From assembly GCF_963676685.1 (NCBI RefSeq), contig NC_092348.1, positions 31,186,001 through 31,250,000 on the forward strand: a DNA stretch of 64,000 bases, written 5' to 3'. The notes beneath the pieces are model-generated. The model was not told the DNA's origin, made no database searches, and saw nothing but the letters and a program-made list of their open reading frames with translations. Position 1 is the stretch's first letter, and the number at the start of each line of letters is the position of its first letter. Positions 1,374 through 37,527 of the stretch are shown here, one piece after another. Source of the DNA: Mytilus edulis (lineage: Eukaryota). The position numbers and the translations under genes were made by a program.

Positions 1374-1637
1374 ATGAGGATTTCCAATCTTTTAACTGCT
1401 ATAGTCTGTTTCTTTTTTTACATAACTTCTATCATGGCTCAATTAAATGTCGACATTTCTGGTGGCGGCGGCGGTGGCGGAGGAGGCGGTGGTGCTCCAG
1501 GCGGAAGAGGAGGAGATGTAATTACAAACATAAGAATCAATGGAGGGGGAAGATTCTTTCGTGGTGGAGGTAATAATCAAGGTGGAAAAGGAAAAGGAAA
1601 AGGACGTGGTAAAGGTAAAGGAAGAGGCTTTGGTTGA
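1374..1637 (+). CDS. Secreted Gly-rich cationic protein, paralog 1 (87 aa; one poly-Gly module; GK/GR tail)
   Basis: Signal-peptide-like N-terminus (..TSIMA|Q); module NVDIS-G11-AP-GGRGG-DVITNIRI shared with six paralogs; acceptor tttttttcag (AG 1361-1362) just before the ATG; AATAAA at 1706-1711 followed by a GT-rich tract. Confidence 0.9.
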   Translation: MRISNLLTAIVCFFFYITSIMAQLNVDISGGGGGGGGGGGAPGGRGGDVITNIRINGGGRFFRGGGNNQGGKGKGKGRGKGKGRGFG

Positions 1638-1897
1638 AAGCGACGAGGTCAGTCAAGATTAGAAATGACTTATTTTGTACTTTAAATGAATTCCTGTAGA
1701 AACTAAATAAAGTGCTCTATTGTTTTGTGGTTGCTTTGTGGTTAATTGACTGTTGTTTCGATTAGTTTTATTGTTAGGGGGTGTTTTAGTGCTTTTAGAC
1801 TGAATTCTTAGGCATTTATACACATTCATTGCGTTCGATCTTCTTTCAGTCTCTTTCTATCAAACGTCAGTATTCAATTGTGTTCTGTCTCGTTTAA

Positions 1898-2498
1898 TGG
1901 CATACAATACAGTTACAGCGGAGGTAATGACGTTGCTAACGTAAGTTGTTATTTTCGCGACATCATCTATGACTTATCGGGAAAATATTCAGTTTTCGAC
2001 TAATTTTTATCACTCAAACTTATTTAACTTGAAAACGAGTTCATGGACCCCTCTTTTTTAAAATGCCATTTGGTTTGTTTACGTAAGAAGATGGTGTGTG
2101 CCAATTTTCATCTAAAACGTAAATAGTGCAATTTTTTTAATTTTGATAAAAAAAATATATAGCAAAAAATATCGTTTTTTTCTCAATTCATGAACATTTG
2201 ATAAATATGAGTTATTTCTGAATAAAAAAATGCATAAATTTTTAGGATACTTACAACATACAGAAATTACATATTATTTAACAAAAAACAAATTGTGTTT
2301 ATCTTTTAAAACAAAAAAGTTACGTCTTTGTTTCGAAATGGATAATACGGCCACAAATCCGAATTTTGAGCAAATATACAAAATTTCGACCTCATTTTAC
2401 TCAAAAAGTAGCACATGAAGGTACATTTTTTATTACATATTTGATTTAATCAGGTAAAAAGTAAATGTAAATCAGGATCAAAACTGTATCGTATGCCC
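1898..2498. mobile_element. Non-autonomous TIR element with TTAA target duplication (Kolobok/piggyBac-type target)
   Basis: ttaa|tggcatacaatacagtt ... aactgtatcgtatgccc|ttaa. Confidence 0.7.
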
Positions 2499-3009
2499 TT
2501 AACTGATAATAACTATTGGTCGACTCGGGTCGGTACGGTAATATTGTTCCTTATATGCCGTAGTAAGTAGTTTCTCCTGTCCGGGTCATATACCTAATTT
2601 AAAATCTCATTGTACCCAATAGAACTTTAGCAAAATTATAAGGCAACCAATCAAAACCGTACATCTATATATCCATTTGGTGTGACGGCAAAGTACAGTA
2701 AATTGATCATCCGTTACGATAGACAAACACAGCTGATCTGCAATGTATACCAACTACTTGCTACGGTACATTATACACTGTGTCACAACCCTAGTTAAAT
2801 GCGTTACAAAATACAAGATGAACGAAAGCTATATAACAAACAAGAGACCATATGACACAGAAATTAACAACTATAGGTCACCGTACGTCCTTCAACAATA
2901 AGCCAAACCAATACCGCATAGTCGGATATAATTTAAAAGGCCCCGAAATGACAATGTAAAACAATTCAAACGAGAAAAATAACGGCCTAATCTATGTTGA
3001 TTATAACCT

Positions 3010-3200
3010 TGTTGTTCCAGTGGTCGTAATTAAGCCCTGTGTAAGCGGTGTTGCCCTTATGTTTCAGATGCAGGGGTTCGATTCTCACTAATAAAAGAAA
3101 AAAAATTGGCTAATTTAAAATTGTAGATCTAACATGACTTTGCTATTTTAAGACGAATTTTAAATACATTATGGTGTTTGTCCTGTATAATCACAGGACA
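3010..3200 (+). mobile_element. Possible decayed tRNA-derived SINE
   Basis: Pol III B-box-like GGTTCGATTC at about 3076-3085; no cloverleaf recognisable. Confidence 0.3.
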
Positions 3201-3349
3201 ACGTCTTTCGGAGATTGACAAAAAAGCAACAGTCTTTTTGTTCCTTGACGTTTTGAATCCAGGGACACTGACATAAATCTAAAGTGAAATAGAGTACTTT
3301 ATATTATTATGTTACATACTATGATCGCTCGTTTAACCCTGATATCATT

Positions 3350-3510
3350 TGGAATTCATTAAGTTTTGTCACTCTCCTAGTTTTGACATTAAAAAATGTG
3401 AACAGTTTAAATACATCATACTGAGGTACATAAACAATAAATGTTTCACTCATTTCACCATTAGATTATTTTAACTGAGGTGTCAACAATTTTAAGGTAT
3501 GTTTTACACA
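3350..3510 (+). promoter_or_regulatory. Putative core promoter and non-coding exon 1 of paralog 2
   Basis: Homologous to 175-340; TACATAAA at 3427-3434; donor AAG|GTATGT (GT 3497-3498). Confidence 0.55.
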
Positions 3511-4012
3511 TTTATGTATTGAAATGTATACACAAAAATTAACAATGAACATAATCCGTTTATTTTTCTAGATGAATTTAAATATAAATCAGTTCAATTA
3601 AATTGCTGGCCCTTTTTCTTATTAATGACACGCATTAGTAAAAAAAGGGGGAGTAGATAAAGAAGACACGTTTTGACCCAGCCAACTAGTACACACGAGT
3701 ACAAACCCGTGCGAGCGCAGCTTGAAGACTACTTGAAATTTGTAAGATGATACATGTTTGGCTTTAATATAAGCAGTGTTTGGATTTATAGTTTTAACGA
3801 TGATTTTGTGCATTGTTTGGACCTAAAAGCTTGAGTAAACTCTTGGCCATTACCTAGGATACAAAATAGTCTGTGACCAAGAGTTGCCCCAAAACCTTTG
3901 TGGACCTTTAGTAACGATCACAAATAAATTATGCTAAAAACTGTTTAGAATAATTAAAAATTAGACCCAAACTGAAACTACAACACAAAACTTACTCCTT
4001 TGGGTATACGTG

Positions 4013-4569
4013 AATGATAAAGCAACTCAACGACAAAATTAACATGTGCACAAAATCTGTTTTACACCGCCATATTTATATATTAAAATGAAGATAATTA
4101 TGTGGAATGATTATGCGTATACCTAGTCAGAAGTGGTTAACTTGTCATCAATGTGTTACATGTTTAATTGTTTCAAGCACAGACCCAACTGTTGGTGATA
4201 TCTTTTCAAATGTTTATATATTATGTTTCAGACTATTCCTTTTAATATTTGCTATATGGTATGGGCTTTGTGCGTTGTTGAAGGTCGTACCGTCAATGAT
4301 AAAGCAACTCAACGACAAAATTAACATGTGCACAAAATGTGTTTTACACCGCCATATTTATATATTAAAATGAAGACAATTATGTGGAATGAGTATACCT
4401 AGTCAAAAGTGGTTGACTTGTCATCAATGTGTTACATGTTTAATTGTTTCAAGCACAGACCCAACTGTTGGTGATATCTTTTCAAATGTTTATATATTAT
4501 GTTTCAGACTATTCCTTTTAATATTTGCTATATGGTATCGGCTTAGTGCGCTGTTGAAGGTCGTACCGT
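4013..4569. repeat. Tandem duplication of about 280 bp in the presumed intron of paralog 2
   Basis: aatgataaagcaactcaacgac.. starts at 4013 and 4295; copies nearly identical. Confidence 0.9.
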
Positions 4570-5399
4570 GATCTATTGTTATTTACATCCTCGTTAAGTG
4601 GTCTCCGGTGAATAGTTGAATGTTGGCAATTATACAAACATTGTTTTTAGAAAGAACATTTTAAGGGCAACATAGAGTCATAAACACTAAGTCAGACGTC
4701 TTTAATACAATTTGACTTTTTTACTATAAATTAAAATGTATTTCATAATATAGCATTACTTAAAAATGATTTTTTTTTATGTAATGTTCGTATGTTTGTT
4801 TATTCGATAATGTTCTACTATTTTGCAATGTTTTTGTATAGTGCGATATTGCAGCGGCTGGTCAAATTGTTAAACATAGTGTACAGTACTTCGGAATGAT
4901 CTAATTGTCCAAAACCTAAAAGACTCATAAACTATATACGTAGGAACTACTAAAAAGGGGGAAAAACCAAATTAAAGTGTAGTTTTTTAATGTTTAAATA
5001 GAAGGTAACCCTATTGAAAAGAATCCACATACAGCATTTAAGGACATAAACTTTAGACAGCTTATACTCATTTATATGCGCGGACTTACATATTGGGAGA
5101 ATGCAGAGCAGGAGACGCTTACCCTGTTGACGAATATGGTACTGTCTTTCTCATTGTGTTAATAATGCGATTCTCTAAATTTTTGTTTACTACCTTGATT
5201 TTTAATCTTTTATGACAATTTATGAGATTCTAACATCGGTAAGCAACTGCAACAGTATCTATCTGAACAAGTAATAAAATACAATAAGAATGCATGTACA
5301 TGTAGCATTGATTAAGACTAGCAGCTTAATTTATAGAAAATGATGAAATGTTTACTACTACTGCATCTTTTTATGTTATTTTTTTTTCAGTAAGCTAAG

Positions 5400-5729
5400 A
5401 TGAGGATTTCCAATCTTTTGATAGTTGCAATATGTATCATATTTTACATTACTTCTATCATGGCTCAATTTAATGTCGACATTACTGGTGGCGGCGGAGG
5501 AGGTGGGGGAGGCGGTGGCGGTCCAGGCGGAAGAGGAGGAGATATAATTACAAACATAAGAATAAACGGAGGTGGCAGATTCCTTCGTGGTGGAGGTAAT
5601 AATCAAGGCGGAAGAGGTAATCAAAGAGGGAATGGAAGAGGAAACGGAAGAGGAAATGGAAGAGGAATTAGTAGAGGAAATGGTAGAGGAAATGGACGTG
5701 GTAAAGGTAAAGGAAGAGGGAGAGGTTGA
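5400..5729 (+). CDS. Secreted Gly-rich cationic protein, paralog 2 (109 aa; one module; (GRGN)n tail)
   Basis: Closely similar to paralog 1 at protein and DNA level, with 22 extra codons of GRGN-type repeats; acceptor AG 5389-5390. Confidence 0.9.
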   Translation: MRISNLLIVAICIIFYITSIMAQFNVDITGGGGGGGGGGGGPGGRGGDIITNIRINGGGRFLRGGGNNQGGRGNQRGNGRGNGRGNGRGISRGNGRGNGRGKGKGRGRG

Positions 5730-6208
5730 AAGTAGTGAAGTCAACAATGAAAAGGTCACCCGTGTATGACTTTAAATTACAAAATTTTGATAAATTGGTG
5801 TAGATACTGATAAAGCTTTAAATTGTTTTTGTTGTTTTTTGTTGTGTTTTTTTGTACGGTTTCTTTTTTTTTTTTTTTTTTATTTGCTGTTGTTTTTTTT
5901 TTGGCACAGTTATTGCTTTCGATCTTCCAATCATATTCTGCCACGTTATGTAAGCGCTAAACGACATAATTTGACCGACATCAAAAGGACTGTTGATAGG
6001 TATTCGAAGATGTTCAGAAATTACGGATTTTATATTATTTTTTTAACTTGTAAGAAAACATTTTCATAAAAAAATCAAAGAAATAAAAATAATGTTCACT
6101 ACATTTTTGTGTACAACGATGTTTCATATTTTTAAACGGAACATTATCAGATTTGCAAAATTGTACGAAGTGGAATCACATCAAGTTGTTCTATATAATT
6201 CCGTTTTA

Positions 6209-7664
6209 CCGCAGTCCCCACTAGGCCACGATCGCACTACGGTCTGTGAAAAAAATGCAAAATTTGATGATCGTAGTACGATCGTGAAGATCGCAGTATG
6301 GTCGTATCACGGTCGTGGTGTGGTCTTCAAGATAGTGATGAGCGTGGCCAACTTTGAACATGTTTAAAACAATCGTGGTGCGATCACGGTGAAATAAGGT
6401 CGTAGGAGAAGCGTATTGAGAGCGCAATAAGATCGTAGTAAGATCGCAAAGGTCGCTGTACCGTCATAGCGAGAGCGTAGCGAAAGCGTGATTCTATTTG
6501 GAGAGACTGCGCTACGATCTCACAGCGACGTTATTACGACCTCACTACGACCATCACGCTTTCACCGCGACCCAACTACGCTTCCACTTTGACTATACCA
6601 CGCTGTTCACGACCATAGTACGATTCTAGCACGCCCTTGCCGTCCCCTTCTTACGACCTAACCACGTTTATACTACGACCATCATTCTCATTGTCATTTT
6701 CACATAAAATATATTAAATCTCTCCATGTTTTGTTTGTCGGTATGTAATTAGGACTTCTTGTCCATTTTCTCTAACGGCTAGACCATGCTTCTCGTTTTT
6801 ATATAGAATAGACCGTTGGTTTTCCCGTTTGAATGGTTTTACACTAATTTGTTGGGCCCTTTATAGCTTGCTGTTCGGTGTGAGCCAAGGCTCCGTGTTG
6901 AAGGCACGGTACCTTGCCCTTTAATGGTTTACTTTTATAAATTGTTACTTGGATAGAGAGTTGTCTCATTGGCACTCATACCACATCTTCCTATATCTAT
7001 TGACACATCTGTGTCATATCTGATATCGTTCATTAAAATATCGTCATTTGAGCATTATGGACCAGCAATAGGTTGTAATTTAGGTTGGATTGGTCGGTCC
7101 GACATCTCTACTTGATCAGAATTCGTTACTATCAGATCTCCCTCTGCATCTTCATCAACCCCTACCACCACGCCCACGTGTTCTAGTAAATTTTGGTGGC
7201 ATGACTGTATTGTTTCCGAGAAATCTACGTATTAATCAGAAATAGAAGGAATGGAACTCTATTGATTTGGAACACGTGGTTGGCGTTATTGCTGTGAACT
7301 TAGTAGAGATCGCGGTTCGAACTTAGTATAATTGTGGTAAGAAAGTGCTATAATCGCAGTAGAAGCGTGGTAAGATGATGTTGAGATCGTGTTGCAATTG
7401 TATAGCTCTTGGTGTGGTCGTAGTGACAACGTGATGAGCGTAGAAAGATCTTGATGAGCGTAGTGAGGTCGCAAAATAAGCGCGGTGAGAACGTGGTATA
7501 ATTGTAGCGGGATCGTTGTAGAAGCGTAATGAGGACGTAGCAGCATCGTGAAACGACAAAAAATAACAGTTTCATGCCGCTCATACCGCGACCTCACCAC
7601 GATCTGAATTTATTTTTCGATCGCGGTAAGCGTGGTGCGATCGTGGTTTAGTGTGACTGGGGCT
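6209..7664. mobile_element. Non-autonomous DNA transposon (Harbinger-like termini) with CGTAG/CACGA-rich subterminal repeats and a nested repeat at about 6800-7000
   Basis: TIRs cagtccccactaggccacgatcgcactacg / cgtggtgcgatcgtggtttagtgtgactg; TTA/TAA flanks; superfamily assignment tentative. Confidence 0.65.
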
Positions 7665-8196
7665 TAACGGATTATACCAGAAACGTAACTGTATCGTGTA
7701 CATATATATAGTCATTTGTTCTCGATAGTAATCAGTTCTCGATAGGAATGCGCGTGGATAAAAAATAAAGAAGTTCGCAAAATCGCACATGTTTTCTATT
7801 TGTCGGTAATTCAAGGACAAAATAAAAACTAGCTTCAAGCATGCAATAATTTCAACATTTCAAGTTTTCAGACATTTTACAACAGTAAAAATAATATTTT
7901 CCGATTTTAACCTACTTTTCCTTATTCCCAAAACAACCCTAACTTCATCCCCTCGGTTTATACATAGCACGTTTTCAAATGTTAACAAAACTTAGCTCGA
8001 AAAGAAGGTCAAGTCCACATAGTATTACGTAATACACAATTGTAAGATGTGGTGTGACGTCGCTATGGAAAAAAATCTATGGAATATTCAATGCATATTT
8101 TTGTCCTTGAGTGATAATTCCTAGGATATCGGTTAAAGATGCCTTAAATGATCGATAAGGCTAAAATTCATTAAAGAAATATGGTTCTAGAGGCAA

Positions 8197-8450
8197 ATGA
8201 TTTTCGCACATCACGTGTTTCTGTACTAGCCTTCGTCAGGTACATTACAGATTTATGGAAGGCCACAAATGTAACTGTATACTATGATTTTCGCGCGCAC
8301 ATCACTTTTTTCTGTACTAACCTTCATCAGGTACATTAGAGAAGTACGAAAAGCCACAAATATAAGTATATACTATGATTTTCGAGCTCAGATCACGTGT
8401 CTCTGGAATAACCTTCTTACGGTACATTAGAGAAGTATGGAAAGCCACTA
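8197..8450. repeat. Three tandem units of about 88 bp
   Basis: atgattttcgc..ggtacatta..gccac repeated three times. Confidence 0.75.
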
Positions 8451-9018
8451 ATCTGAAATGCCAAAGAGCTCAAAATGATTACTTGAACAGAACAATCAAA
8501 AACTGTCTAAAACACAATTCCCAGGGAAGGGAGATTTGAGCGCTCACAAACATGTTTAACCCCGCAACATTTTATATGTGCCTGTCCTAAAGTAAGGAGT
8601 CTTTTATTCAGGGACTGTTGTTTGTTCGTGTCTGTCATCTTTGTTCTACGTTTTTTGTTTTTACACACAAAAATAGTTAACCGTACCAGATTCTATATGT
8701 GCGTTCAAAAGTAAGGATACTGTAATTTAGGGATAGTCGTTGGTTGCTGTCTTTCATATTTGTTTTTCGTTTATTATTTTTTACATAACACAGACCGTGG
8801 GTTTCCTCGTCAGAATTACTTACCAGTTTATCATGTATTCATGTTTATTCATATAGCTGACGATATGATACTGGTTTTGCTCATTGTTGAAGGCCGTGCG
8901 GTGATCTATAGTTTCTTGAATCCATATTATTTGGATTCTGGTGAACACATATCATTTTTATATGGTCAACTTCAAATGAACAACTGGCAAATATTGTTGA
9001 TTGATTTGGGGTATGAAT

Positions 9019-9153
9019 CAGTGGCGGATCCAGAACTTTTCCTAAGGGGGGGGGTCCCTCCAGTCATGCTTCAGTGATTCCCTATATAATCAACCAAATT
9101 TTTCCTAGGAAAGGGGGGCCCGGGCCCCCAGCACCCCCCCTGGATCCGCCTAT
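9019..9153. mobile_element. MITE with GGCGGATCCAG terminal inverted repeats
   Basis: cagtggcggatccag ... ctggatccgcctat, flanked by the direct repeat atgaat. Confidence 0.75.
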
Positions 9154-13457: not shown

Positions 13458-13889
13458 ATGAATTGTTCAATCATTATTGTGATAGCTTCAATATCTATTG
13501 TGTATTACCTCAACTCTGTTACTGCTCAAGTTAATGTCAACATTAATGGTGGCGGTGGTGGCGGCGGAGGTGGTGATCAAGCTCCAGGTGGAAGAGGTGG
13601 TGATATTAATACTAAGATTATCATAAAAGGAAGTGGTAGAGGAGGTTGGAAAGGAGGAAGACGAGGGGACAGAAGAGGAGGTGGAAGAGCCGTCCAAGGC
13701 AGATTAAATAATCAAGGTGGGAGACGGGGAAATCAAATCGGGGGCAGAGGGAGAGGACAGGTTAGAGGGAGAGGACAAGTTGTAGGGAGAGGACAACTTG
13801 GAGGAAGAAGACAACTAATAAGAGGTCTAAGAAGACAAGTTAGAAGATTACTGGGAAATCCTGTTGGGCCCAGGTTTAGACGATTTTAA
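13458..13889 (+). CDS. Secreted Gly/Arg-rich protein, paralog 3 (143 aa; one module; RGG and GRGQ repeats)
   Basis: Signal peptide (..NSVTA|Q); module NVNIN-G9-DQAP-GGRGG-DINTKIII; acceptor AG 13447-13448; AATAAA 13910-13915. Confidence 0.9.
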   Translation: MNCSIIIVIASISIVYYLNSVTAQVNVNINGGGGGGGGGDQAPGGRGGDINTKIIIKGSGRGGWKGGRRGDRRGGGRAVQGRLNNQGGRRGNQIGGRGRGQVRGRGQVVGRGQLGGRRQLIRGLRRQVRRLLGNPVGPRFRRF

Positions 13890-18254: not shown

Positions 18255-18683
18255 ATGAATGGTTCAATCATTATTGTGATAGCTTCAATATCTGTTGTAT
18301 TTAACCTCAATTCAGTAACTGCCCAAGTAAATGTCGACATAACTGGAGGCGGAGGCGGAGGCGGAGGCGGTGGTGGTGATCAAGCACCTGGTGGTAGAGG
18401 TGGCGATATTAATACAAAAATTATCATAAAAGGAGGTGGAAGAGGAGGTAAAAGAGGAGGTAGAAAAGGATTTCGAAAAGGAGGTAAAGGCAGATTAAAT
18501 AATAAAGGTAGAAGACGAGGAGGACAAAACATCGGGGGTAGAGGGAGAGGAAATTTTGAAGGAAGAGGACAAGTTCGAGGGAGAGGACAAGTTAGGGGAC
18601 GAGGACAAATTCGAGGACTAGGACGAGGCGGGGGTCAGTATAGAGGATCACTAGGATATGCTGGTGGATTTAGACGTTTTTAG
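18255..18683 (+). CDS. Secreted Gly/Arg-rich protein, paralog 4 (142 aa; one module)
   Basis: Paralog of 13458-13889 (similar signal peptide, DQAPGGRGGDINTKIII, C-terminal FRRF); acceptor AG 18244-18245; AATAAA 18703-18708. Confidence 0.9.
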   Translation: MNGSIIIVIASISVVFNLNSVTAQVNVDITGGGGGGGGGGGDQAPGGRGGDINTKIIIKGGGRGGKRGGRKGFRKGGKGRLNNKGRRRGGQNIGGRGRGNFEGRGQVRGRGQVRGRGQIRGLGRGGGQYRGSLGYAGGFRRF

Positions 18684-25899: not shown

Positions 25900-26345
25900 A
25901 TAACGATGTTAAAAACCTATCAATATTTTTGGCTTATTTGTTCCTGAACTAATGGTCTTCTGATTTATAATATCAATTTCAAATTCTAGTAAATTTTAAT
26001 TTCAACTAAGATCACCCTAAGATATGACACCATTATATCATTTTAATCAAATATCTCAAAAAGGAGTTCAATAACCTATCAATATTTTTTGCATATTTGT
26101 TCCTTAACTAATGCTCTTCTGATTTATAGTATCAATTTCAAATTCTAGTGTTTTTTTTATTAAATTTCAATTAAGTACATCCATAATTATAACACAATAA
26201 TATTTAAAATCAAATATCTCAAAATAGAGTTCGACAACCAAATAATATTTTTGGCTTATTTGTTCCTTAAGTAATGCTCTTCTGACCTATAGTATCAACT
26301 TCAAAATCTAGTAAGTACATCCTTTAAAATAACACAATAATAACT
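25900..26345. repeat. About three tandem units of about 160 bp upstream of paralog 5
   Basis: aatatttttggcttatttgttcct..cttctga..tatcaa..tctagt near 25920, 26080, 26245. Confidence 0.75.
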
Positions 26346-26696: not shown

Positions 26697-27200
26697 ATGA
26701 AAGTTTCAAACTGTTTATTAACAATCCTTATCTTTTACAATTATTGTTCTGAGCTGACCTTTGGACAGAAAGGTCACAACAATGGTTTAAATTTGAATAT
26801 ATCTGGAGGAGGGGGTGGCGGAGGTGGCGGAATTGGTCCAGGAGGAGACGGCGGAAGCGTAATAACTAACCTGAATATCAAGAAAATAAAAAATGTTCGC
26901 AAGAATAAAGGCGACAGACAAAAGATTAAGTTAGCAAACGGGATAACTCTTGAAGGATTTAATTTGAATATCAATGGCGGTGGCGGTGGTGGCGGCGGTG
27001 GTTTGGGTGCAGGAGGCGATGGTGGAGACATTATCACTAATGTAAATGTGGGGAAGATGAAGAATGTTGATAAGGTAAAACCTTTGAAGAAAAAAAAAGA
27101 CAAAAAAGACAAAAAGAAAGACAAAAAAAAGAAAAAGAAAGACAAAAAAAGGAAAAAGAAAGACAGAAAAAAGAAAAAGAAAGACAAAAAAACAAAATAA
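26697..27200 (+). CDS. Secreted Gly-rich protein, paralog 5 (167 aa; two modules; poly-Lys/Asp tail)
   Basis: Signal-like N-terminus (..LTFG|Q); two modules 57 aa apart (poly-Gly runs start 26805 and 26976); 37-aa tail with 28 Lys; candidate acceptor AG 26625-26626. Confidence 0.88.
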   Translation: MKVSNCLLTILIFYNYCSELTFGQKGHNNGLNLNISGGGGGGGGGIGPGGDGGSVITNLNIKKIKNVRKNKGDRQKIKLANGITLEGFNLNINGGGGGGGGGLGAGGDGGDIITNVNVGKMKNVDKVKPLKKKKDKKDKKKDKKKKKKDKKRKKKDRKKKKKDKKTK

Positions 27201-27515: not shown

Positions 27516-27886
27516 TTTATCTCACTTTACCTGAATGGCCAAGTGAGCTTTTCACATTACTTGGCAACCGTCGTCTGTCGTCATCGGTCGTCATTAAATT
27601 TTACAAAAATCTTCTTCTCTGAAACTACTGAGACAAATTTAACCAAATTTTGCCACAATCATCATTCAGTTATAAATTTCAGAACATGTGTCCGATGACC
27701 CCGCTTGCCAACCAGCAAAGGCCGATATGGACTGAAAATAGAACATAGAGGTAAAATACACTCTTTGGCTTTGAGTTATTATCTCTGACACTGTAGCAAA
27801 AGTAAAATGCTTGCATTACTTCTTCATGAATCAATTGTAAACAAAAATACCAAGTGAGCGACACAGGCTCCTTGGAGCATCTAGTT
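27516..27886 (+). mobile_element. Non-autonomous Helentron (HINE/DINE-1-like)
   Basis: 5' ctcac..gtgagc inverted pair, cgtc microsatellite, 3' gtgagcga plus gctc/gagc hairpin, T-rich ends. Confidence 0.6.
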
Positions 27887-30070
27887 TAAATACATGACCG
27901 GTTGAACTATATTTCTTTTTAGTATCGTAACCGTAAATATAAATACATAGATATAGGAAGATGTGGTGTGAGTGCCAATGAGACAACTCTCCATACAAAT
28001 AAAAATTTAAAAAGTAAACCATTATAGGTTAAAGTACGGCCTTCAACACATGTTCACAATAAGTTACAAAGATAATGATATGTAACAGTTGATGTCAACT
28101 GTTAAACAATTATACTACCTTATCACTGTCGGCCCAGGACTCTTGTTTCACTTCCTTCACATCGATGACACAATAATGTTATTTTTAATCTGAAAATACA
28201 TAATTTGTGCGATTTTTTTTCTATTGAATTAAGGAATATAACCGTAGCTTAGTCATGCAAAGATTTTATAAGCTCTTTATTTTTTTATTGAATAAGATTT
28301 TGATTATCAAATATATTGGCCTCGAGCATCACTGCAAACACACTATTTTTTAATGTTTTTCACCTCTCTGTGGAATTCAAAAACCGACAACTGCCGCTAT
28401 TATAAAAGAGAGGTGAAAATATCAAGGGTGCATTCAAACTCCCAAGTCGAAACTAAACTGACAAACGACATGGCTAAAGAAAACAACAAACAAACAAACA
28501 ACAATGCATGCACATAACAAAACATAGAAAACCAAATACTGTTTCACACGATCCCCAACAAAAACTGGTGCAGCGAAAAGGGTAAGTAGATACTGCTCCA
28601 CTTATGGCACTTGTTGTGCAGCTCATGTTAGTATTAAATTGGTACGTCAAATTCGGGGGAAAAGGGACTGGAGAGCCGTTACATAATTTACCCCTCAGAA
28701 GCGGGTGTTTATTGTTTCCGGATCGACAAACGGCATTATCACCCGTTGCTAATATTATCACATGCTGTTATGGATTGGCGGTGCTTCTGAAAAGTTAGTG
28801 AAGATTAACAAATGGCGCGTTTCAATAAAATGAATGGAAAATATATTGATATGCATAAAAAAAATATCTAGTTTACATTGGCTCAAATATCGATTTTGTC
28901 ATCAGCAAATCAAAACATAACTAAATTTGTATTCTTTTCAATCGGCATGTATAAAACACATTAACGTTTTTTTTATTCTATATAGAGGTTTACTCCTACT
29001 GCTTGTCTATATTTGTGGGGCCATTGTACAAGTCATAACTTCTTTTAAATTAACTGTCCTTGATTTTAAAGTACTAAATCCCTGGGATTTTTTTTAGTTT
29101 TAGTGTGATGTTACACTTTTGTTTCAGATAAGGGTGAAGGTTGAACGTGTTAGTGTGTAAAGCCGCTGCATTCGTTTGCACCTGTCCTAGGTCAGAAATC
29201 TGATGTTCAGTAGTTGTCGTTTGTTGATGAGATTCATAAACCCAAACCGCATAGTCAGCTATAAAAGGCCCTGTAATGACAGATGTTAAACGATTCAAAC
29301 AGAAGACTAACGGCCCGACTCGTGTACAAAACAATGTAAGAAAAACAAATTTGATTTACAGCAACAAACAACAACCTCTGAACTACAGGCTCCTGACATA
29401 GGACAGACGCATGCATGATGTGGGGTTAAACTAGTTTGCTAGCACCAAACTCTCACCTTAATAAGGGACAGCAGTAAAACATAAGAACAATTTACAAAAT
29501 TCAGTTTGAAAGAGCTTATCCTATCATATCGATATACAAAGAGGATAACATGGCAGCACATAAAACACCTTCCAAAATCGAGAGAGAGAGACAATAGGTA
29601 CAGATCTGAGAGTACTTGCAGTCAGCTAGTCAAAATTCAAAAACAAAGAATTAATTAAGACTCTTTCAAAATTAAGTACTGTTATTAGTTAAAGTGAATA
29701 GCAAGAGAGACCATTCCTAGGGAAAAGACATATGTTTTGCAATATAAATTTACAGTTCAATTAAGGATGAATTTCTTTATTTAAGTTTTATTTATAATTT
29801 AATGAAAGGGTGAATTATACACTAAAATACACTAATCCTCAAAAATTTGTATTCGTTTTTGTTTAATTCTTAATTTCTTTTTAAAAAATACTTACGACAA
29901 TTCTATTCTTATACAAAGACTTCACCATTATACACGCGAAGTTATGTAAATGTTGTAATGTTACAAAAAGTCAGTTCAAAGTTAATGCCAATTAAACAAT
30001 TATTTTTATTGTGCACAATTGATATTGTTCCTCCCTTGTTCGTTCACCATTGGATTATGATTTGTTACTT

Positions 30071-31544
30071 CTTATAACAGGGATGATGTCTGAGGGTGAA
30101 TGAGTCTTGTAACAGGGATGATGTCTGAGGGCGAATGAGTCTTATAACAGGGATGATGTCTGAGGGTGAATGAGTCTTATAACAGGGATGATGTCTGAGG
30201 GTGAATGAGTCTTATAACAGGGATGATGTCTGAGGGCGAATGAGTCTGATAACAGGGATGATGTCTGAGGGTGAATGAGTCTTATAACAGGGATGATGTC
30301 TGAGGGCGAATGAGTCTTATAACAGGGATGATGTCTGAGGGTGAATGAGTCTTATAACAGGGATGATGTCTGAGGGCGAATGAGTCTGATAACAGGGATG
30401 ATGTCTGAGGGTGAATGAGTCTTATAACAGGGATGATGTCTGAGGGCGAATGAGTCTTATAACAGGGATGATGTCTGAGGGTGAATGAGTCTTGTAACAG
30501 GGATGATGTCTGAGGGCGAATGAGTCTTATAACAGGGATGATGTCTGAGGGTGAATGAGTCTTATAACAGGGATGATGTCTGAGGGTGAATGAGTCTTGT
30601 AACAGGGATGATGTCTGAGGGCGAATGAGTCTTATAACAGGGATGATGTCTGAGGGCGAATGAGTCTTATAACAGGGATGATGTCTGAGGGCGAATGAGT
30701 CTTATAACAGGGATGATGTCTGAGGGCGAATGAGTCTTATAACAGGGATGATGTCTGAGGGCGAATGAGTCTTATAACAGGGATGATGTCTGAGGGCGAA
30801 TGAGTCTTATAACAGGGATGATGTCTGAGGGCGAATGAGTCTTATAACAGGGATGATGTCTGAGGGCGAATGAGTCTTATAACAGGGATGATGTCTGAGG
30901 GCGAATGAGTCTTATAACAGGGATGATGTCTGAGGGCGAATGAGTCTTATAACAGGGATGATGTCTGAGGGCGAATGAGTCTTATAACAGGGATGATGTC
31001 TGAGGGCGAATGAGTCTTATAACAGGGATGATGTCTGAGGGCGAATGAGTCTTATAACAGGGATGATGTCTGAGGGCGAATGAGTCTTATAACAGGGATG
31101 ATGTCTGAGGGCGAATGAGTCTTATAACAGGGATGATGTCTGAGGGCGAATGAGTCTTATAACAGGGATGATGTCTGAGGGTGAATGAGTCTTATAACAG
31201 GGATGATGTCTGAGGGCGAATGAGTCTTGTAACAGGGATGATGTCTGAGGGCGAATGAGTCTTAAAACAGGGATGATGTCTGAGGGCGAATGAGTCTTAT
31301 AACAGGGATGATGTCTGAGGGCGAATGAGTCTTATAACAGGGATGATGTCTGAGGATGAATGAGTCTTGTAACAGGGATGATGTCTGAGGGCGAATGAGT
31401 CTTAAAACAGGGATGATGTCTGAGGGCGAATGAGTCTTATAACAGGGATGATGTCTGAGGGCGAATGAGTCTTATAACAGGGATGATGTCTGAGGATGAA
31501 TGAGTCTTGTAACAGGGATGATGTCTGAGGGTGAATGAGTCTTG
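30071..31544. repeat. Minisatellite, 42 x 35 bp (CTTATAACAGGGATGATGTCTGAGGGYGAATGAGT)
   Basis: 30071-31540 = 1470 bp = 42 units, with no spacers. Confidence 0.97.
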
Positions 31545-31949
31545 AATTTTGAATCTTGCTATGTTTTGTTTCAAAAACTTATTTTAAAAATCATGGCTAA
31601 AATAAGTCTTAAAACTGTGTTCAATACATATTAGCTACTTTACTTTCATGTGTATACTGTATGGTTTTGTACTGTTGTGTTTTTTTTCTGGTTTCCCTCT
31701 TCCGAACTTAAGACAGTTGCATTCCATTCGTATGACGTGGTAAGCTGTTCATTTTGTCATTTGATAAAGGACTTTTTGTTTAGAATTTTCTGTGGAGATT
31801 GGTGTTTTTTAGTTATTTCCTTTTTGTTATGGTTGATTCAAAACCTCAAGTTAGAATATTTTACTATTCTTTTGTTTTAAAATATTCCAAAATATTTTAC
31901 TTCTTGTATAATATAATTAACGACACTAGCAAATAGATGCACAATAGCA

Positions 31950-32170
31950 CTATAAATATACTCTGAAAAATATTGCAAAAAGTTCTTTTCAGCTTATAGA
32001 CATAATTTATCATTTTGAAGTACACAAGGACACGTGCACCATATGTATGCATGTTATGAAGTAGAATAGTTCAACTTTCTACATTTATTGCTCAGCGTTA
32101 GAATCAAATTTTAAGGTAGGTTATACAACTCTGAAACAATAATGATTTAAATTTGTTTAATTGAATGAAC
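31950..32170 (+). promoter_or_regulatory. Putative promoter and non-coding exon 1 of paralog 6
   Basis: Homologous to 35660-35860; donor AATTTTAAG|GTAGGT (GT 32116-32117), an exon end resembling that of paralogs 1 and 2. Confidence 0.45.
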
Positions 32171-33115
32171 ATTTCGTTTTTTTATGCGTTTTGTTATTTG
32201 ATTTTGCCATGTGATTATGGACTTTCCGAATTAATTTTCCTCTAAATTCAGTATTTTTGTGATTTTACTTTTTTCCATTCAAACAAAATAAATATATACA
32301 TGTATTAGATGAAAGTCAATCCAGAATAACTATTCGGACGCAAAAACTGATTATTTTTTTTTATTTTTATTTTTTTTGCAGTATGACGTTATGTTTGTTT
32401 TGTTTTGTTTTTTTGATTCAAAATTGAAAACAAATTTAATCGCCGTCCGAAAACAAAATAGCTTTAATTATACTTTTTGTGGCACATTTTGGAAATAAAT
32501 TGTTTTAAAAATGTCGATACCGCTTCTTGGTTCATATTATGTCACAAAAAATACGTAACTCATTGAAATAAATGATTTGAAATAATTCCAAGGTTTTGTT
32601 TTGCCGAGCAACATTTGAACAACAAATTTTCTCCCGGAATATTATGGCAGCTTTTAAGATTGTTGAAAAATTCAATAAATACATTAATTTCTAGGAAAAG
32701 CTATTATCAACAAGAAAAAAAAATCTAGCTAGAAATTCTAGATAAAGCAGAAGTATCTGAAGTTCCTAGTTTTGTTTACGTTTTTGTAAATTAAACATAA
32801 ATATAAAACAGACAGGAATATGGCAGTTGTTATCCATTCATTCTATGTGTTTAAACTTTTGGTTTAACCATTTGATAATACTATTCTTTCCATTTTGAAT
32901 TTTTCTAGGAGTTCGGTGCTTTTGCTCTTTTATTTTTACTCGGAATCGGTTGATCGCAGATAGCTGCTCAGTTAAAAGACTAATTGGATACACAGTTTAA
33001 TGGATTTTGTCCACCTAATAACAAAGCTAAAACATGAACTAAACAAAAGAAAGATGTTTGTACGCAGCTATTGTGTGTTTTTCTTTTTTCTTGTAGAAAA
33101 AATACGAACATTCTA

Positions 33116-33868
33116 ATGAATATTATCGGGGTGATTTTGGTACTTGGCATTTTTAACAAATGTGCATGCCATGGCTACTATGGAGATAATTATTACAGAG
33201 GATACGGAGAACTTCCATTGCATAGACCGCAATCAAACGGAAGAGATTGGGAAAAACTATTCAAAAATTTGAAAGCACGTGTTAGTAATTTAGAAAAGGT
33301 TCACCGTAATAATACGGATGGAAACATCAATATTGATATTAAAGGAGGCGGGGGTGGTGGTGGAGGCGGAATCGAACCAGGAGGAAATGGTGGAAATCTA
33401 ACAACTCATTTATTTATTAAGAAAATCAAAACGGTTCATACTAAGGATGGAACAAAAGTCATAATAAAGCCCGGTGATGGGCGAACATTACAAGTGCTTA
33501 AATTAATGATCAAAGGAGAAGGCGGCGGGGGAGGAGGCGGAATGGGTAAGGGTGGCGACGGAGGAAGTATATTTACAAACTTGACAATCAAAACATTTAA
33601 GACTGTATTTAGAGATGGAATAAATGTCACTACTGCTGAGGTTATAAATCCACTAGAAGGGCTCGGTTTGAACATTAAAGGTGGTGGCGGAGGTGGAGGT
33701 GGCGGCACAGGCCCTGGTGGCAACGGCGGCGACTTGGTTACAGCTATTGTCATAGAGAATGTAAAGGATGTAACTATAAACGGAACTTGGACAAAAGAAG
33801 ATAGGAAGGCATGGAAATTAATAAAGAAGTTACGGAGACAAAAGAATAAACAAAATGGAAAAAAATAG
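33116..33868 (+). CDS. Secreted Gly-rich protein, paralog 6 (250 aa; three modules; basic tail)
   Basis: The track start at 33071 is a TTG inside a polypyrimidine tract; acceptor AG 33095-33096 is followed by ATG 33116 (MNIIGVILVLGIFNKCAC|H signal); modules start 33344, 33515, 33680. Confidence 0.88.
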   Translation: MNIIGVILVLGIFNKCACHGYYGDNYYRGYGELPLHRPQSNGRDWEKLFKNLKARVSNLEKVHRNNTDGNINIDIKGGGGGGGGGIEPGGNGGNLTTHLFIKKIKTVHTKDGTKVIIKPGDGRTLQVLKLMIKGEGGGGGGGMGKGGDGGSIFTNLTIKTFKTVFRDGINVTTAEVINPLEGLGLNIKGGGGGGGGGTGPGGNGGDLVTAIVIENVKDVTINGTWTKEDRKAWKLIKKLRRQKNKQNGKK

Positions 33869-35147
33869 GACCTAATGAGTCTAGCTCTTTCCTTGAATTT
33901 TAATATTTCAATGGTTGTGGAGATAAATGATTGAACACTCTCCTATGGTTGAGGAAAGTTGAGTGATAAAAAAATTTGTTAACTCATATATCGATTCTTT
34001 ATGATTCTTGTTAAATTATATCTTTACTAACAATTGAAGCAAAAGCATGAATTGTTTTTTTTTAAACTGCATCATTGATTTGCGACTTACATATTAATGC
34101 AGTTGTTTTTAAAAGAGTTCAGGAAATTATCTTTTCTTTATTATTATTTTCTTATTATCATACACCCATCAACAAATGGAAATATTGCTGGAGTTCAGTT
34201 CGTCCGAAACGCTTTTTCTCATTCAAAACTAAAAACTCCTTAAGCCCAGGAGAACCTAATACCGACATAACAATTTAAATGTAGACATAATGAAACCCAC
34301 CAAAACTCATCGAGATCTCAGCTGCTTTGGAATGGTCGATAGATATTGCTCAAAATCTCATGTTTCACCTAGAAAAAGTCATTACAGATACTTGGCTTAT
34401 CAATTGCTACGCCAGACATGTGTTTCATCTTCATAAGACTCAGCAATGGTACAAACAGTTTGAATGCAAAATAAAATACGAAGTTGAAAAACATAAAAAC
34501 ATGTGCCAAATACGGCCAATGCAATTAATTCATAAGGGTAGAAAACATTAGTGTTTAAAACAATATCCTGTAATATCAACAGTTAAATGTAAAAAAAAAT
34601 ATTTTTAAAATACCGAACTCCGAGGAAAATTCCAAATGGGAAGTTCGTTATCGAATGGCAAAATCAAAAGCTCAAACACATCAAACGAATGGATAACAAC
34701 TGAGACATACATGACTTGGTACAGACAATTTCTTGAAAACCTGGTTTTATAGCTAACTAAACCTCTCACTTGTATGACAGTCGCATACAATTCCATTATA
34801 TTCACAACGATGTGTTAACAAAACAAACAGACGTAATACATGTAATATATAAAAATGTCAAAAAAACGACAAATTAGCAGAACATTAACATATCAATGGT
34901 AAGTACAAAATCTCTGATATTCTCAAGCGAGGATGTTACAATTAAAGAAAAAACGGACGAAATAGTGATAAACAACAATCGGAACATGTCAGTATTTATC
35001 TTTGACATAACATGTTATAACGATCAACTTACTTTTGATGGTGTACGTAAAACTGTCCAGACTTGTTGAAAGGAAGTAGTGCGGGATTAAACTTTGCAAA
35101 AAACTGCTGATTAACAAAATCAATTGAAGTCTTCGATTTGTTTTGTT

Positions 35148-35208
35148 CGATTACAGTGTTCATATGACGAAGCTTCGGATAGAAACCATTCGCGAATTGT
35201 TACGTATA
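35148..35208 (-). pseudogene. Decayed SLC7-paralog exon fragment (YVTIREWFLSEASSYEHCNR)
   Basis: Ungapped 44/61 nt match by hand to 45295-45355 ([20 protein letters not shown]); T-rich tract upstream on the - strand but no clear AG. Confidence 0.6.
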
Positions 35209-35659
35209 AAAATAAAAAAAAAAATAAAAAATACCCCTTAAAATTTGTAATTTTTCACAGACCTTTCCTTATAACTCTGTCTTTTTTCTTTATCAAATAC
35301 TGCTGTCTCTAAGCTGGCGTCTATTGTTTATAAGACAATTTTATCTCTACACAATTCTCCTGTTTCCCATATCACTTCATACCATTTATTGTATAGAAGA
35401 GTTTTTGGAATAATGTATGCTATGCTCACCGATTGATTATTTTTGCTCTATGTATTTGTCTTTGGGGAACCAGATATGAAAAACTTTCTGATAAAAATGC
35501 AATCGAAATACACAATTATACCGTCTTTCTTTATTATTTGTGGTGAAAGATCAATCATCGAATATGTTTAACAATTAATGTTGAACTCCTTTTTATGAAT
35601 TATGCAACCAGTTGATAGATGGCATTATAATATTGCAAAAAATATAAACATCAGGTCAT

Positions 35660-35860
35660 TGCTCTAAAATAAAGTGCATGAAGTTCCTTTGTAACTTATA
35701 GCCTTAACTTTTAGTTTTAAAGTAAACACGGATACACTTTTTGACCATGTATTTAAAGATATTTATAACAAACATTCTGTTGTTCTTGATGGGAAAAAAC
35801 CTAAGCAGGTAAGTTAGACCTCTCTGAAACAATATCAAGGTAAATTTGCTAATTAATAAA
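35660..35860 (+). promoter_or_regulatory. Putative promoter and non-coding exon 1 of paralog 7
   Basis: Homologous to 31950-32170; donor CAG|GTAAGT (GT 35809-35810) followed by the shared ctctgaaacaat. Confidence 0.45.
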
Positions 35861-36720
35861 ATGCATAGAAATAAATATTGTCAACTGTGCTCAAAGATAC
35901 GTTATTACAGATAATTGATTTTTCTATCCTGTAAAACCGGTTTTTTTCTGTTAATTTTCGGAATCGTATATGATATAATACATTTAATATACATAATTTG
36001 TTTTCCGTCAGCTATCAAGGGCCCCGATATGACAATGTAAAACAATTCAAACGAGAAAACTAACGGCCTTATTTATCTAAAAATATGAACGAAAAACAAA
36101 TATTTAACACATAAACAAACGACAACCACTGAATTACAGGCTCCTAATTTGGGACAGGCACATACATAAATAATGTGGCGGGGTTAAACATGTTAGCATG
36201 TTAAAATTGTTTTCATATCTTTAGCATACACAACTCGAATGTTATTGGGATAACTCACAAATTCAATTGTCCTATGGAACAGCGAAAATGTTTTGTATAA
36301 AAGCGCAAATGGCATTTAAAACGCGCAAACGTGACGCGTCGAGATTTGACCACTTGGTTGCTTCAATATGTTTAATAATCAAACAATATCGCCATTATCA
36401 TTTTACCCAATTTTCAAAAGAGTACAAAGTTAACGTAGTAATCTTTAAGATTTTTTTTTTAAAGGGTAATAATATCGGGATGAAAATTAACTACTATTTT
36501 TATATTACATGTGGTGAAAATATGCGATTAAAAACCAAAGGGACATAATAAAATATCATAGATCGCAAATAATCCGCTAATACCATAACAATAAATAAAA
36601 TTTAAAAAATGGGTTAAAATATATTTGTCCATCTTTTTATAATTATTAATAAACATTTAAAAACAAATCAAGGTTTTTAAAGCATTAATTTAGTTCTTTT
36701 CTATTCTTTTTCCAGGAAAG

Positions 36721-37527
36721 ATGAACATCTCAATAATTTACATCAGTTTGATTTTTAATCTTGTCATTTATGACAATTGTTTGGGCCATAGATCCTATGG
36801 AGAAAATTATCGCAGAAGACACGGACGATTATCAAGACAAAGACCACGTTCAAGTACTTTTGGCAGACGATTTGTGAAAAAAAACATACAAAAAGGTCTA
36901 CCGTTGAAAGATCCCGAAATAATTGCTAGCACTACTGATCAGGTAGCACTTTCTAATGTTGACAGAAATATCAATATGAATTTAACAGGAGGCGGAGGTG
37001 GTGGCGGTGGAGGAATCGATCCAGGCGGAAATGGTGGAAATCTTTCTACTAATTTATTTATCAATAAAATCAAGACAATTCACACTAGTGACGGAACAAT
37101 AATCAAAGTTAAACCTGGTGATGGTCGAACATTGGAAGCACTTAAATTGATCATTGACGGAGGAGGTGGCGGGGGAGGAGGAGGAATAGGAAAAGGCGGT
37201 GATGGAGGAAGTATATTTACAACCTTGACAATCAACAAATTAAAGACTGTTTTTAGAAATGGAGCAAATGCAACTTTTGCTGAAGTTCAAAACCCTCTCC
37301 GTGGACTCAGTTTGGAGATTAATGGCGGTGGTGGAGGTGGCGGAGGTGGACCAGGCCAAGGAGGCGATGGTGGCGATTTGGTTACAAATGTTGTCATTGG
37401 AAAAGCTAAAATAGTCACGAAAATTGGCGCTAGAAGAAGAAAAAAGAAAAAGGATCGGAAATTAAAAAGGATGTTGAAGAGGAAAAGGAAGAACAGAGAC
37501 AAGTTTAAGCCATTGCTTAATTACTAG
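36721..37527 (+). CDS. Secreted Gly-rich protein, paralog 7 (268 aa; three modules; Lys/Arg tail)
   Basis: Collinear with paralog 6 (e.g. KPGDGRTL, GKGGDGGSIFT); modules start 36988, 37159, 37324; acceptor AG 36714-36715; AATAAA 37599-37604. Confidence 0.9.
   Translation: MNISIIYISLIFNLVIYDNCLGHRSYGENYRRRHGRLSRQRPRSSTFGRRFVKKNIQKGLPLKDPEIIASTTDQVALSNVDRNINMNLTGGGGGGGGGIDPGGNGGNLSTNLFINKIKTIHTSDGTIIKVKPGDGRTLEALKLIIDGGGGGGGGGIGKGGDGGSIFTTLTINKLKTVFRNGANATFAEVQNPLRGLSLEINGGGGGGGGGPGQGGDGGDLVTNVVIGKAKIVTKIGARRRKKKKDRKLKRMLKRKRKNRDKFKPLLNY

What the first reader, a model, noticed from the sequence alone, without database searches (positions are those of the whole stretch)
1440..37430. Module copy number rises 1-1-1-1-2-3-3 along the chromosome
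Seen: module 1-to-2 spacing is 171 nt (57 aa) in paralogs 5, 6 and 7, and module 2-to-3 spacing is 165 nt (55 aa) in 6 and 7. Linkers are conserved (I-x-K/T-h-K-[TN]-h ... L-x-[GAV]-h-x-L-x-I). Single-module proteins have GG-R-GG; multi-module ones have GG-D/N-GG. Inference: one module of about 30 aa is too small to be a stable domain. Single-module members may therefore oligomerise into what three-module members build from one chain, or all members may co-assemble into fibrils. This would be a snapshot of a fold arising by peptide repeat fusion.
Basis: inference. Interest (0 to 1): 0.7.

Follow-up and report, generated by a model that had tools for sequence, protein, structure and literature searches.

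The report
Mussel glycine-hairpin stacking protein cluster
A mussel gene cluster encodes small, likely secreted, positively charged proteins built from one, two or three copies of a glycine hairpin; three copies are predicted to stack into a rigid bundle shaped like snow-flea antifreeze protein, so the one-copy proteins would likely have to stack on each other, probably as an extracellular structural material.

Summary
Observation confirmed: seven intact Mytilus paralogs carry 12 modules (1-1-1-1-2-3-3), spaced 171/165 nt. An eighth, three-module in other mussels, survives here only as a tail. The glycines are held by protein-level selection (third-codon differences 0.66 versus 0.01). The best of five AlphaFold2 models of the three-module core (pLDDT 75) matches springtail antifreeze proteins (Z 9.0, rmsd 2.2 A, 77 of 81 residues). 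This suggests each module is a beta-strand/polyproline-II hairpin/beta-strand rung and three rungs stack in one chain. Only 1 of 5 models was confident, and the two-module paralog did not reproduce the fold. Oligomerisation of single-module proteins remains inference. They lack about 25 residues of the 55-57-residue repeat, so an open stack is likelier than a copy of the three-module domain. The rising order is not evidence of stepwise fusion: it is three blocks of sister genes (1 in 3 by chance), and repeat trees do not fix direction. Relatives were found only in Mytilus, and no paper names them. The scan had not noted this family before. Likely role: cationic extracellular matrix or coat protein; tissue unknown. 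New variant of glycine-rich polyproline-II bundle proteins.

The parts
1374..1637 (+). Paralog 1 CDS, 87 aa: signal-peptide-like N-terminus (by eye), one module at 1440-1541, Gly/Lys/Arg tail
   Evidence: contig of an RNA-like run over 1523-1642
5400..5729 (+). Paralog 2 CDS, 109 aa: one module at 5466-5567, GNGR-repeat tail; 84% DNA identity to paralog 1
13458..13889 (+). Paralog 3 CDS, 143 aa: one module at 13527-13628, GRGQ-repeat tail
   Evidence: contig over 13446-13907 beginning at the splice acceptor
18255..18683 (+). Paralog 4 CDS, 142 aa: one module at 18324-18431; M. trossulus relative P0034, 82% identical
26697..27200 (+). Paralog 5 CDS, 167 aa: modules at 26784-26882 and 26955-27053, poly-Lys/Asp tail; M. 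trossulus relative P0008
33116..33868 (+). Paralog 6 CDS, 250 aa from the ATG at 33116: modules at 33323-33421, 33494-33592, 33659-33757
   Evidence: RNA-like contigs cover CDS and 3' UTR
36721..37527 (+). Paralog 7 CDS, 268 aa: modules at 36967-37065, 37138-37236, 37303-37401; core 36958-37440 was folded
   Evidence: RNA-like contigs 36713-38143
40250..40413 (+). Remnant of paralog 8: an acceptor-like site resembling that of paralog 6, followed almost directly by the last 40 codons; signal peptide and all three modules are missing in this haplotype
   Evidence: one contig of run X15 spans 39517-40517 with 0 differences (it may come from the assembled individual)

Best explanation
This is a tandem family of cationic, likely secreted mussel proteins whose repeated module is predicted to be one rung (beta-strand A, glycine polyproline-II hairpin, beta-strand B) of a two-layer stack, and whose single-rung members would likely complete the stack between chains, probably as an extracellular matrix or coat material. 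Shown: the genes, the module anatomy, selection on glycine and on hairpin length, and RNA-like coverage of paralogs 3, 6 and 7. Predicted: in three-module proteins the three G9 helices lie parallel in one layer and the three x-GG-x-GG helices in the other, as in snow-flea antifreeze protein. Inferred: the flanking strands continue the two layers as a small beta-sandwich with in-register aliphatic, Thr and Asn ladders. Inferred: the stack is open-ended, and the all-glycine layer has no side chains on its outer face, so it probably packs on another chain. One-, two- and three-rung proteins would then polymerise or co-assemble, leaving the Lys/Arg tails free to bind polyanions (mucus, acidic matrix proteins, cell surfaces). 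Odds: polyproline-II/beta fold about 0.6; inter-chain stacking of single modules about 0.4; structural extracellular role about 0.45.
For: Best AlphaFold2 model of the paralog 7 core: mean pLDDT 75.2, pTM 0.63, with 79-86 in the ten-residue blocks that mainly hold the glycine hairpins, which are neither helix nor strand by DSSP. It matches 3BOG at Z 9.0, rmsd 2.2, 77 of 81 residues, 2PNE at Z 7.8 and 7JJV at Z 6.5, with the next entry at 3.9. Among 48,161 chains only 2 reach Z 5 or more, both springtail antifreeze proteins; the next is 3.2. Sequence evidence independent of the model: in the 8 multi-module window modules, glycine codons differ at 0.66 of third positions and 0.010 of first and second positions (364 codon pairs). 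The hairpin is exactly 12 residues plus GG-x-GG in 8 of 8 and the 57/55 spacing holds across species. Non-glycine residues at hairpin positions 12, 15 and 18 give the X-G-G register. In 12 of 12 modules, strand positions A2, A4, A6, B2, B6 and B8 are hydrophobic and B4 is Thr; A3, A5 and B5 are Asn/Asp-rich. Positions 1, 4 and 7, outward-facing in that register, are Gly in 84 of 90 cases (30 distinct modules after dropping 2 gene-model artefacts). The review 10.1101/2023.11.25.568672 (whole text read, figures and tables not held) reports that all-glycine helices are those surrounded by other helices. RNA-like contigs cover paralogs 6 and 7 but not the single-copy DNA between them, and begin at the splice acceptors.
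Against: Only 1 of 5 models exceeded pLDDT 70 (75.2, 61.9, 46.8, 46.7, 44.5; 9-sequence alignment). The two-module paralog 5 gave pLDDT 53, and that low-confidence model matched only beta-propeller blades, so the fold was not reproduced. Foldseek found nothing at E<=0.001 in the PDB. The aligner warns that a best Z of 7-8 is common, and AlphaFold may fall back on the springtail geometry for glycine-rich input, so the match is not independent of the model. The three-residue periodicity of substitutions in the glycine tract is not significant (5 of 9 at positions 1/4/7, p=0.14). Module 1 of paralog 8 and of M. trossulus paralog 5 tolerates Val, Asn, Ser, Asp or Ile on the supposedly buried face. 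Tract length varies in single-module proteins. Tissue and function are unknown.
Confidence: 0.45

Rival explanations
1. Closed oligomer: three single-module chains form a discrete six-helix bundle equivalent to one three-module chain, and the family records stepwise fusion 1 to 2 to 3.
For: Three modules give exactly the six helices of the springtail fold. Single modules resemble the terminal module most in strand B (score 18.5 versus 11.6-12.8 for modules 1 and 2) and module 1 most in strand A among three-module positions. The paralog 5 repeat is equidistant from repeats 1 and 2, as an outgroup would be.
Against: A two-layer parallel stack has no closing symmetry (inference). Single modules lack about 25 aa of the repeat and have a longer hairpin. 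A two-module member does not fit a multiple-of-three rule unless mixed. Deletion through the glycine tract predicts the same strand resemblances, and the order is three blocks. The loss of paralog 8's coding region shows that deletions happen in this cluster.
Confidence: 0.15
2. Cationic antimicrobial or mucosal defence proteins: the Arg/Lys/Gly tails bind or kill microbes, and the module is a multimerising or protease-resistant scaffold.
For: Net charge +10 to +32, pI 9.9-12, small size, tandem paralogs with rapidly diverging tails. One member is lost in this haplotype, as in mussel presence-absence variable immune genes (that pattern is recalled, not from a call). Downstream neighbours include F5/8-like and lectin-like exons.
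Against: No cysteine in any mature chain. No Pfam family reaches its cut-off. The conserved part is the module, not the tails. No induction data.
Confidence: 0.2
3. Intrinsically disordered glycine-rich proteins or cross-beta-only aggregates: the glycine tracts are flexible spacers and the bundle is a prediction artefact.
For: 4 of 5 paralog 7 models and all 5 paralog 5 models are below pLDDT 62. In simulations of plant glycine-rich proteins the predicted polyproline-II structure was not persistent (PMC13243192, passages).
Against: A flexible spacer would not be expected to keep exactly 9+3+5 residues across three paralogs and several species with saturated synonymous sites, nor invariant alternating hydrophobic strands and an invariant Thr.
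Confidence: 0.15
4. Ice-binding protein (antifreeze or nucleator) convergent with springtail antifreeze proteins, serving intertidal freeze tolerance.
For: The best structural matches are springtail antifreeze proteins. Earlier evidence for ice-binding proteins in M. edulis is cited in 10.1101/2021.08.30.458284 (passages).
Against: The springtail ice-binding face is alanine-rich with small hydrophobic residues (PMC10235112, passages). Here the outward positions are Gly on one face and Pro/Lys/Asp/Asn/Ser on the other, with 0-8 Ala per mature chain and no Cys. The genes are kept in M. galloprovincialis and M. californianus. A shared fold shows no function.
Confidence: 0.07

Closest known systems
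Springtail polyproline-II antifreeze proteins (Hypogastrura harveyi 2PNE/3BOG; Granisotoma rainieri 7JJV)
   Same: Predicted six glycine-rich polyproline-II helices in the same order, Z 9.0, rmsd 2.2 A over 77 residues. The known fold has parallel helices on each of two antiparallel faces (PMC12227593 passage).
   Different: Each hairpin here is flanked by amphipathic beta-strands and separated by 25-residue linkers; one layer is nearly pure glycine; no Ala-rich face, no cysteines; long cationic tails; members with only one or two hairpins exist.
Other glycine-rich polyproline-II bundle domains: Obg N-domain, phage S16 gp38, ALK/LTK glycine-rich domain, acetophenone carboxylase, PE_PGRS
   Same: Glycine helices joined by segments that include beta-strands; gp38 couples its bundle to beta-solenoid layers (review). 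gp38 (6F45) aligns weakly at Z 2.5, rmsd 5.3, 92 residues. Pfam Gly_rich_2 hits 3 of 7 cores at E 0.32 or worse.
   Different: Those in the review are described as domains of one chain inside enzymes, receptors or phage tips; none is described as a free one-hairpin chain. No significant sequence similarity was found.
Functional amyloid and beta-solenoid subunits with several rungs per chain (FapC, CsgA; lepidopteran chorion paralog family)
   Same: Secreted paralogs with imperfect repeats and linkers that would stack in register (FapC/CsgA repeat anatomy is recalled). Chorion: many paralogs sharing a conserved domain form an amyloid matrix (PMC13252134, abstract only). FapC is the top Foldseek row, but only at E 0.019, TM 0.18.
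   Different: The arc of each rung would be a long polyproline-II hairpin rather than a short turn. Structural scores are at noise level (Z 2.3). Amyloid behaviour is untested.
Mussel and oyster glycine-rich matrix proteins (mussel foot proteins, shematrins, KRMPs)
   Same: Glycine-rich, basic and low-complexity; mussel foot proteins all have pI above 8 (PMC9999432 passage).
   Different: 0-5 Tyr and 0-5 His per mature chain, so no Gly-Tyr repeats, Lys-Trp lead domain or RKYKY-type end as described for shematrins and KRMPs (PMC3896809 passages), and little DOPA potential.

Membership tests
Glycine-rich polyproline-II helix bundle domains (fold class) | Several glycine-rich segments in G-X-X / X-G-G register | tested here: met
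   G9-x-x-x-GG-x-GG-x with non-Gly at positions 10, 12, 15 and 18 in 30 distinct modules, position 18 being Gly in 4
Glycine-rich polyproline-II helix bundle domains (fold class) | Helices packed into a two-layer or honeycomb bundle | tested here: inconclusive
   Met in 1 of 5 models of paralog 7; not reproduced for paralog 5; prediction only
Glycine-rich polyproline-II helix bundle domains (fold class) | Experimental polyproline-II signature (CD, NMR, crystal) | not testable with these tools
   needs purified protein
Collembolan polyproline-II antifreeze proteins | Flat alanine-rich, small-hydrophobic ice-binding face | tested here: not met
   Outward positions are Gly or Pro/Lys/Asp/Asn/Ser; Ala 0-8 per mature chain; definition from PMC10235112
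Collembolan polyproline-II antifreeze proteins | Short loops of 2-6 residues and disulfides, no beta domain | tested here: not met
   38-40-residue connections with predicted beta-strands; no Cys in mature chains
Collembolan polyproline-II antifreeze proteins | Thermal hysteresis or ice shaping | not testable with these tools
   assay needed
Pfam Gly_rich_2 (PF21722) and Obg N-domain (PF01018) | Score above the curated cut-off | tested here: not met
   PF21722 9.6 bits against a cut-off of 24.3 for paralog 7, best E 0.32 among 7 cores; PF01018 not among the 4 families listed at E<=10
Obg / ALK-type bundle-plus-beta folds | Structural superposition of the whole domain | tested here: inconclusive
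   Only 50 of 87 rows with Z>=2 were shown; an unlisted family is not excluded
Shematrin / KRMP | Gly-Tyr repeats, Lys-Trp lead domain, RKYKY-like C-terminus | tested here: not met
   sequences and Tyr/Trp counts against descriptions in PMC3896809
Functional amyloid | Cross-beta fibrils, seeded assembly | not testable with these tools
   needs EM, fibre diffraction, dye binding
Secreted proteins | Cleavable signal peptide | tested here: inconclusive
   Hydrophobic 18-23-residue N-termini in 7 of 7, judged by eye; no predictor was run

The most novel reading that the evidence does not exclude
A natural self-assembling hybrid filament: each chain supplies one, two or three identical rungs of a stack that is cross-beta in one half and polyglycine-II honeycomb in the other. 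The all-glycine layers of two stacks pack face to face, and cationic tails coat the surface. It would be a polyproline-II bundle completed between chains from single hairpins, which none of the natural bundles in the review read here is described as. The cluster would then hold peptide-sized and fused versions of the same fold side by side.
Probability: 0.25. Interest if true: 0.78.

Novelty: new variant of a known kind. Interest (0 to 1): 0.52.

Why it matters
Natural glycine-rich polyproline-II bundles are few; the 2024 review read here lists about seven kinds, and the two-layer antifreeze version has been described as unique to springtails (PMC10235112 passage). A mussel-specific family with a 33-residue, cysteine-free rung in one, two and three copies is a ready test system. 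It could show how many hairpins a bundle needs, whether such bundles can form between chains, and whether peptide oligomers and fused repeats reach the same fold. If it polymerises, it is a new building block for marine biomaterials. If it does not, it is still an uncharacterised family that databases name misleadingly (cabeza-like, IcsA-like, fibrillarin-like).

Tried and rejected
Complex prediction of three copies of the paralog 1 module: no answer (score 0.03 in both runs, mark 0.32, alignment not used, controls not folded); it is no evidence either way. ESM Atlas gave no usable hit for the paralog 7 core or P0008. No run holding paralog 7 is on record as RNA; the RNA label of X1 and X5 is a guess. 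One raw RNA run (X24, about 19% read) showed mean depth of 0.17 or less in the bins over paralogs 6 and 7. A single-sequence search with paralog 1 found 0 of 4256 candidates at E<=1, so sensitivity for single-module members is poor. PDB sequence search matched mostly engineered Gly-Ser linkers. The viral structure library had nothing at E<=0.001. Obg and ALK were not among the rows shown. P0009 (E 6e-4) is a chance glycine-run match and was dropped. Further family members elsewhere in the genome: the strict motif was absent from all 27 loci checked outside the cluster (38 weaker hits had no locus and were not checked). A glycine-rich joint seen in reads traced to the reverse strand of a formin-like poly-proline exon, and a second to a similar-looking tract. 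In one search one row labelled p8cal_L1 is really a second linker, which biases the group means; one search corrects it and removes the apparent closeness of paralog 5 to linker 1. Literature: 0 papers for four accessions and two motif strings; nothing on this family seen in the listings. A foot-gland transcriptome paper recalled from memory was not held. The gill glycine-rich transcript of Mytilisepta is probably collagen-like, judged from its primer only. No supplementary files were opened; proteome or expression tables there could list these genes.
Full report
Setting. The window lies on contig C5 of a 1.37-Gb genome. It is 29-41% GC, and every named relative is from Mytilus, so the organism is inferred to be a Mytilus mussel. 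Seven intact single-exon ORFs on the + strand carry the module. Six of the seven have a polypyrimidine-AG acceptor within 20 bases upstream of the ATG; paralog 5 does not. This suggests a non-coding first exon.

Observation. All measurable claims hold: 12 modules in the order 1,1,1,1,2,3,3; spacings of 171 and 165 nt; GG-R-GG in 4 of 4 single modules and GG-D/N-GG in 8 of 8 others. The strict motif occurs 12 times, against 0 in 100 shuffles and 0 in 200 kb of flank. Genome searches with the paralog 7 core and with paralog 1 found convincing matches only in this cluster. An eighth gene, three-module in M. galloprovincialis and M. californianus (P0007, second half of P0003), is reduced here to its last 40 codons at 40291-40413. 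One contig of run X15 spans the junction without a difference, though it may be the assembled individual.

Are they real genes? Glycine codons in the 8 multi-module modules differ at 0.66 of third positions and 0.010 of first and second positions, so the tract is not a microsatellite. Contigs of two runs guessed to be RNA cover the coding regions and 3' ends of paralogs 6 and 7, leave single-copy intergenic DNA at zero, and carry 32-40 unaligned letters at the acceptors. A third run covers paralog 3 from its acceptor. Tissue is not given by these tools.

Distribution. A profile of the three-module core against 1.84 billion representatives gave 4 hits at E<=0.001: three family members and one chance glycine-run match. 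The word-index search gave 7 proteins, five named from M. trossulus, californianus, edulis or galloprovincialis. A single-module profile gave 1. Pfam has nothing at cut-off. The family appears restricted to Mytilus, with the caveat that short single-module members are hard to detect.

Anatomy of the module. Strand A (h-x-h-x-h) is followed by nine glycines, three variable residues, GG-x-GG and strand B (h-x-T-x-h-x-h). Six strand positions are hydrophobic and one is Thr in 12 of 12 modules; three alternate positions are Asn/Asp-rich. Such ladders are typical of parallel in-register stacks (recalled). In multi-module proteins strand B continues as K-h-K-T-h, also after the last module, and a linker follows, making a 55-57-residue repeat. 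Single-module proteins stop after the short strand B, begin at the likely mature N-terminal Gln, and have a 13-15-residue hairpin. All seven are strongly basic (net +10 to +32) and have no cysteine in the mature chain.

Predicted fold. AlphaFold2 on the paralog 7 core gave one model at pLDDT 75.2 (others 61.9, 46.8, 46.7, 44.5), with seven strands and three confident 17-residue glycine segments. Against 48,161 chains the only matches at Z>=5 were springtail antifreeze proteins (2PNE Z 7.8, rmsd 2.3, 80 aligned; 7JJV Z 5.8; next 3.2). A second look gave 3BOG Z 9.0, rmsd 2.2, 77 aligned. That fold has parallel helices on each of two antiparallel faces (PMC12227593, passage), and successive helices alternate in direction (10.1101/2023.11.25.568672). 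The ordered match therefore places the three G9 helices in one layer and the three x-GG-x-GG helices in the other: each module is one rung, and the rungs stack. Against this: Foldseek found nothing significant, a best Z of 7-8 is common, the match depends on the model, and paralog 5 gave only pLDDT 53 without the bundle.

Why assembly between chains is likely (inference). A single rung has two short strands and two helices with no partner, so if the fold is right it must find partners. A two-layer bundle needs glycine only at inward positions, yet positions 1, 4 and 7 are glycine in 84 of 90 cases. The review states that glycine content rises with the number of neighbours and that fully surrounded helices are all or almost all glycine. 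The bare face therefore probably packs on another layer or a flat surface. A parallel stack has open ends, which favours polymers or mixed assemblies over a closed trimer. Single modules carry Arg and Asp three residues apart on the second helix, a neutral pair compatible with stacking like on like. Limits: module 1 of paralog 8 tolerates substitutions on that face, and their periodicity is not significant (p=0.14). The idea that glycine segments may join bundles of other proteins has been raised from modelling (PMC13243192, passage).

Evolution. DNA identity groups paralogs 1/2 (84%), 3/4 (74%) and 6/7 (75%), and links the two single-module pairs (67-70% over about 200 nt). Repeat 1 of genes 6, 7 and 8 forms one clade (99/98) and repeat 2 another (97/96), so the three-module form arose once, before these genes and before M. 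californianus diverged (16 rows, 48 columns, midpoint root only, with a long-branch warning). The paralog 5 repeat sits between the two clades, and direction cannot be read without an outgroup. The chromosomal gradient is three blocks, monotone with probability 1/3. Internal duplication of the module is certain; the order of events is not, and single-module genes could be derived by deletion.

Function. The best guess is an extracellular structural or coating protein whose rigid core assembles and whose tails bind polyanions (about 0.45). Defence (0.2), disorder (0.15), closed trimer (0.15) and ice binding (0.07) are the rivals; the first two concern role or fold and partly overlap with the main reading. 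Membership of springtail antifreeze proteins, shematrins/KRMPs and Pfam Gly_rich_2 fails on tested features. The protein is predicted to be built like a polyproline-II bundle but is not a member of a named family.

Literature seen. Whole text without figures or tables: 10.1101/2023.11.25.568672. Passages: PMC12227593, PMC10235112, PMC13243192, PMC9999432, PMC3896809, PMC5549309, 10.1101/2021.08.30.458284, 10.1101/2022.03.10.483783. Abstract only: PMC13252134. No paper held four accessions or two motifs. Most subscription papers and all supplements were outside what was searched or opened. Earlier scan notes: none near this locus, one unrelated by sequence, and one bacterial beta-helix plus polyglycine domain by words.

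Verdict. A real, selected, apparently unstudied Mytilus family with a plausible hybrid beta/polyproline-II stacked fold. Interest 0.52; new variant of a known kind.

Noticed in passing
window 40250-40413: Paralog 8 has lost its signal peptide and all three modules in this haplotype, while full-length versions exist in other mussel data (P0007 cluster, 13 members). A possible gene presence-absence polymorphism. P0004 (M. edulis) looks like a paralog 7/8 hybrid model.
   Followed up: partly
window 33116-33868: The window allele of paralog 6 lacks 11 residues present in P0005 and has Glu in place of Gly at tract position 2 of module 2; contigs of two other runs read the glycine codon there.
   Followed up: partly
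window 30070-31543: 35-bp minisatellite, 42 copies, 97% matches, strongly G-skewed, between paralogs 5 and 6.
   Followed up: no
window 4009-4569, 8205-8452, 25914-26312, 47063-47475: Other tandem repeats with periods 276, 91, 163 and 93/69.
   Followed up: no
window 62700-63242 (-): Open frame that reads like a reverse-transcriptase C-terminal fragment of a retroelement (by eye); similar fragments lie in the upstream flank.
   Followed up: no
L022-L027 (about 5-57 kb downstream of the window): A second tandem array: exons with weak F5/8-type hits (E 6e-4, below cut-off), a lectin-like exon, and Thr-rich stalk plus transmembrane exons sharing a conserved juxtamembrane motif, in at least three copies.
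   Followed up: partly
L033:1191-1679 (+): Met/Gly-rich, probably secreted ORF ending in a small cysteine motif, with no Pfam hit at E<=0.01; may be a shell or matrix protein.
   Followed up: no
L034 and L060 (contig C8): Poly-proline exons (formin-like in L034) whose reverse strand reads as glycine-rich open frames and mimics the module in read mapping.
   Followed up: yes
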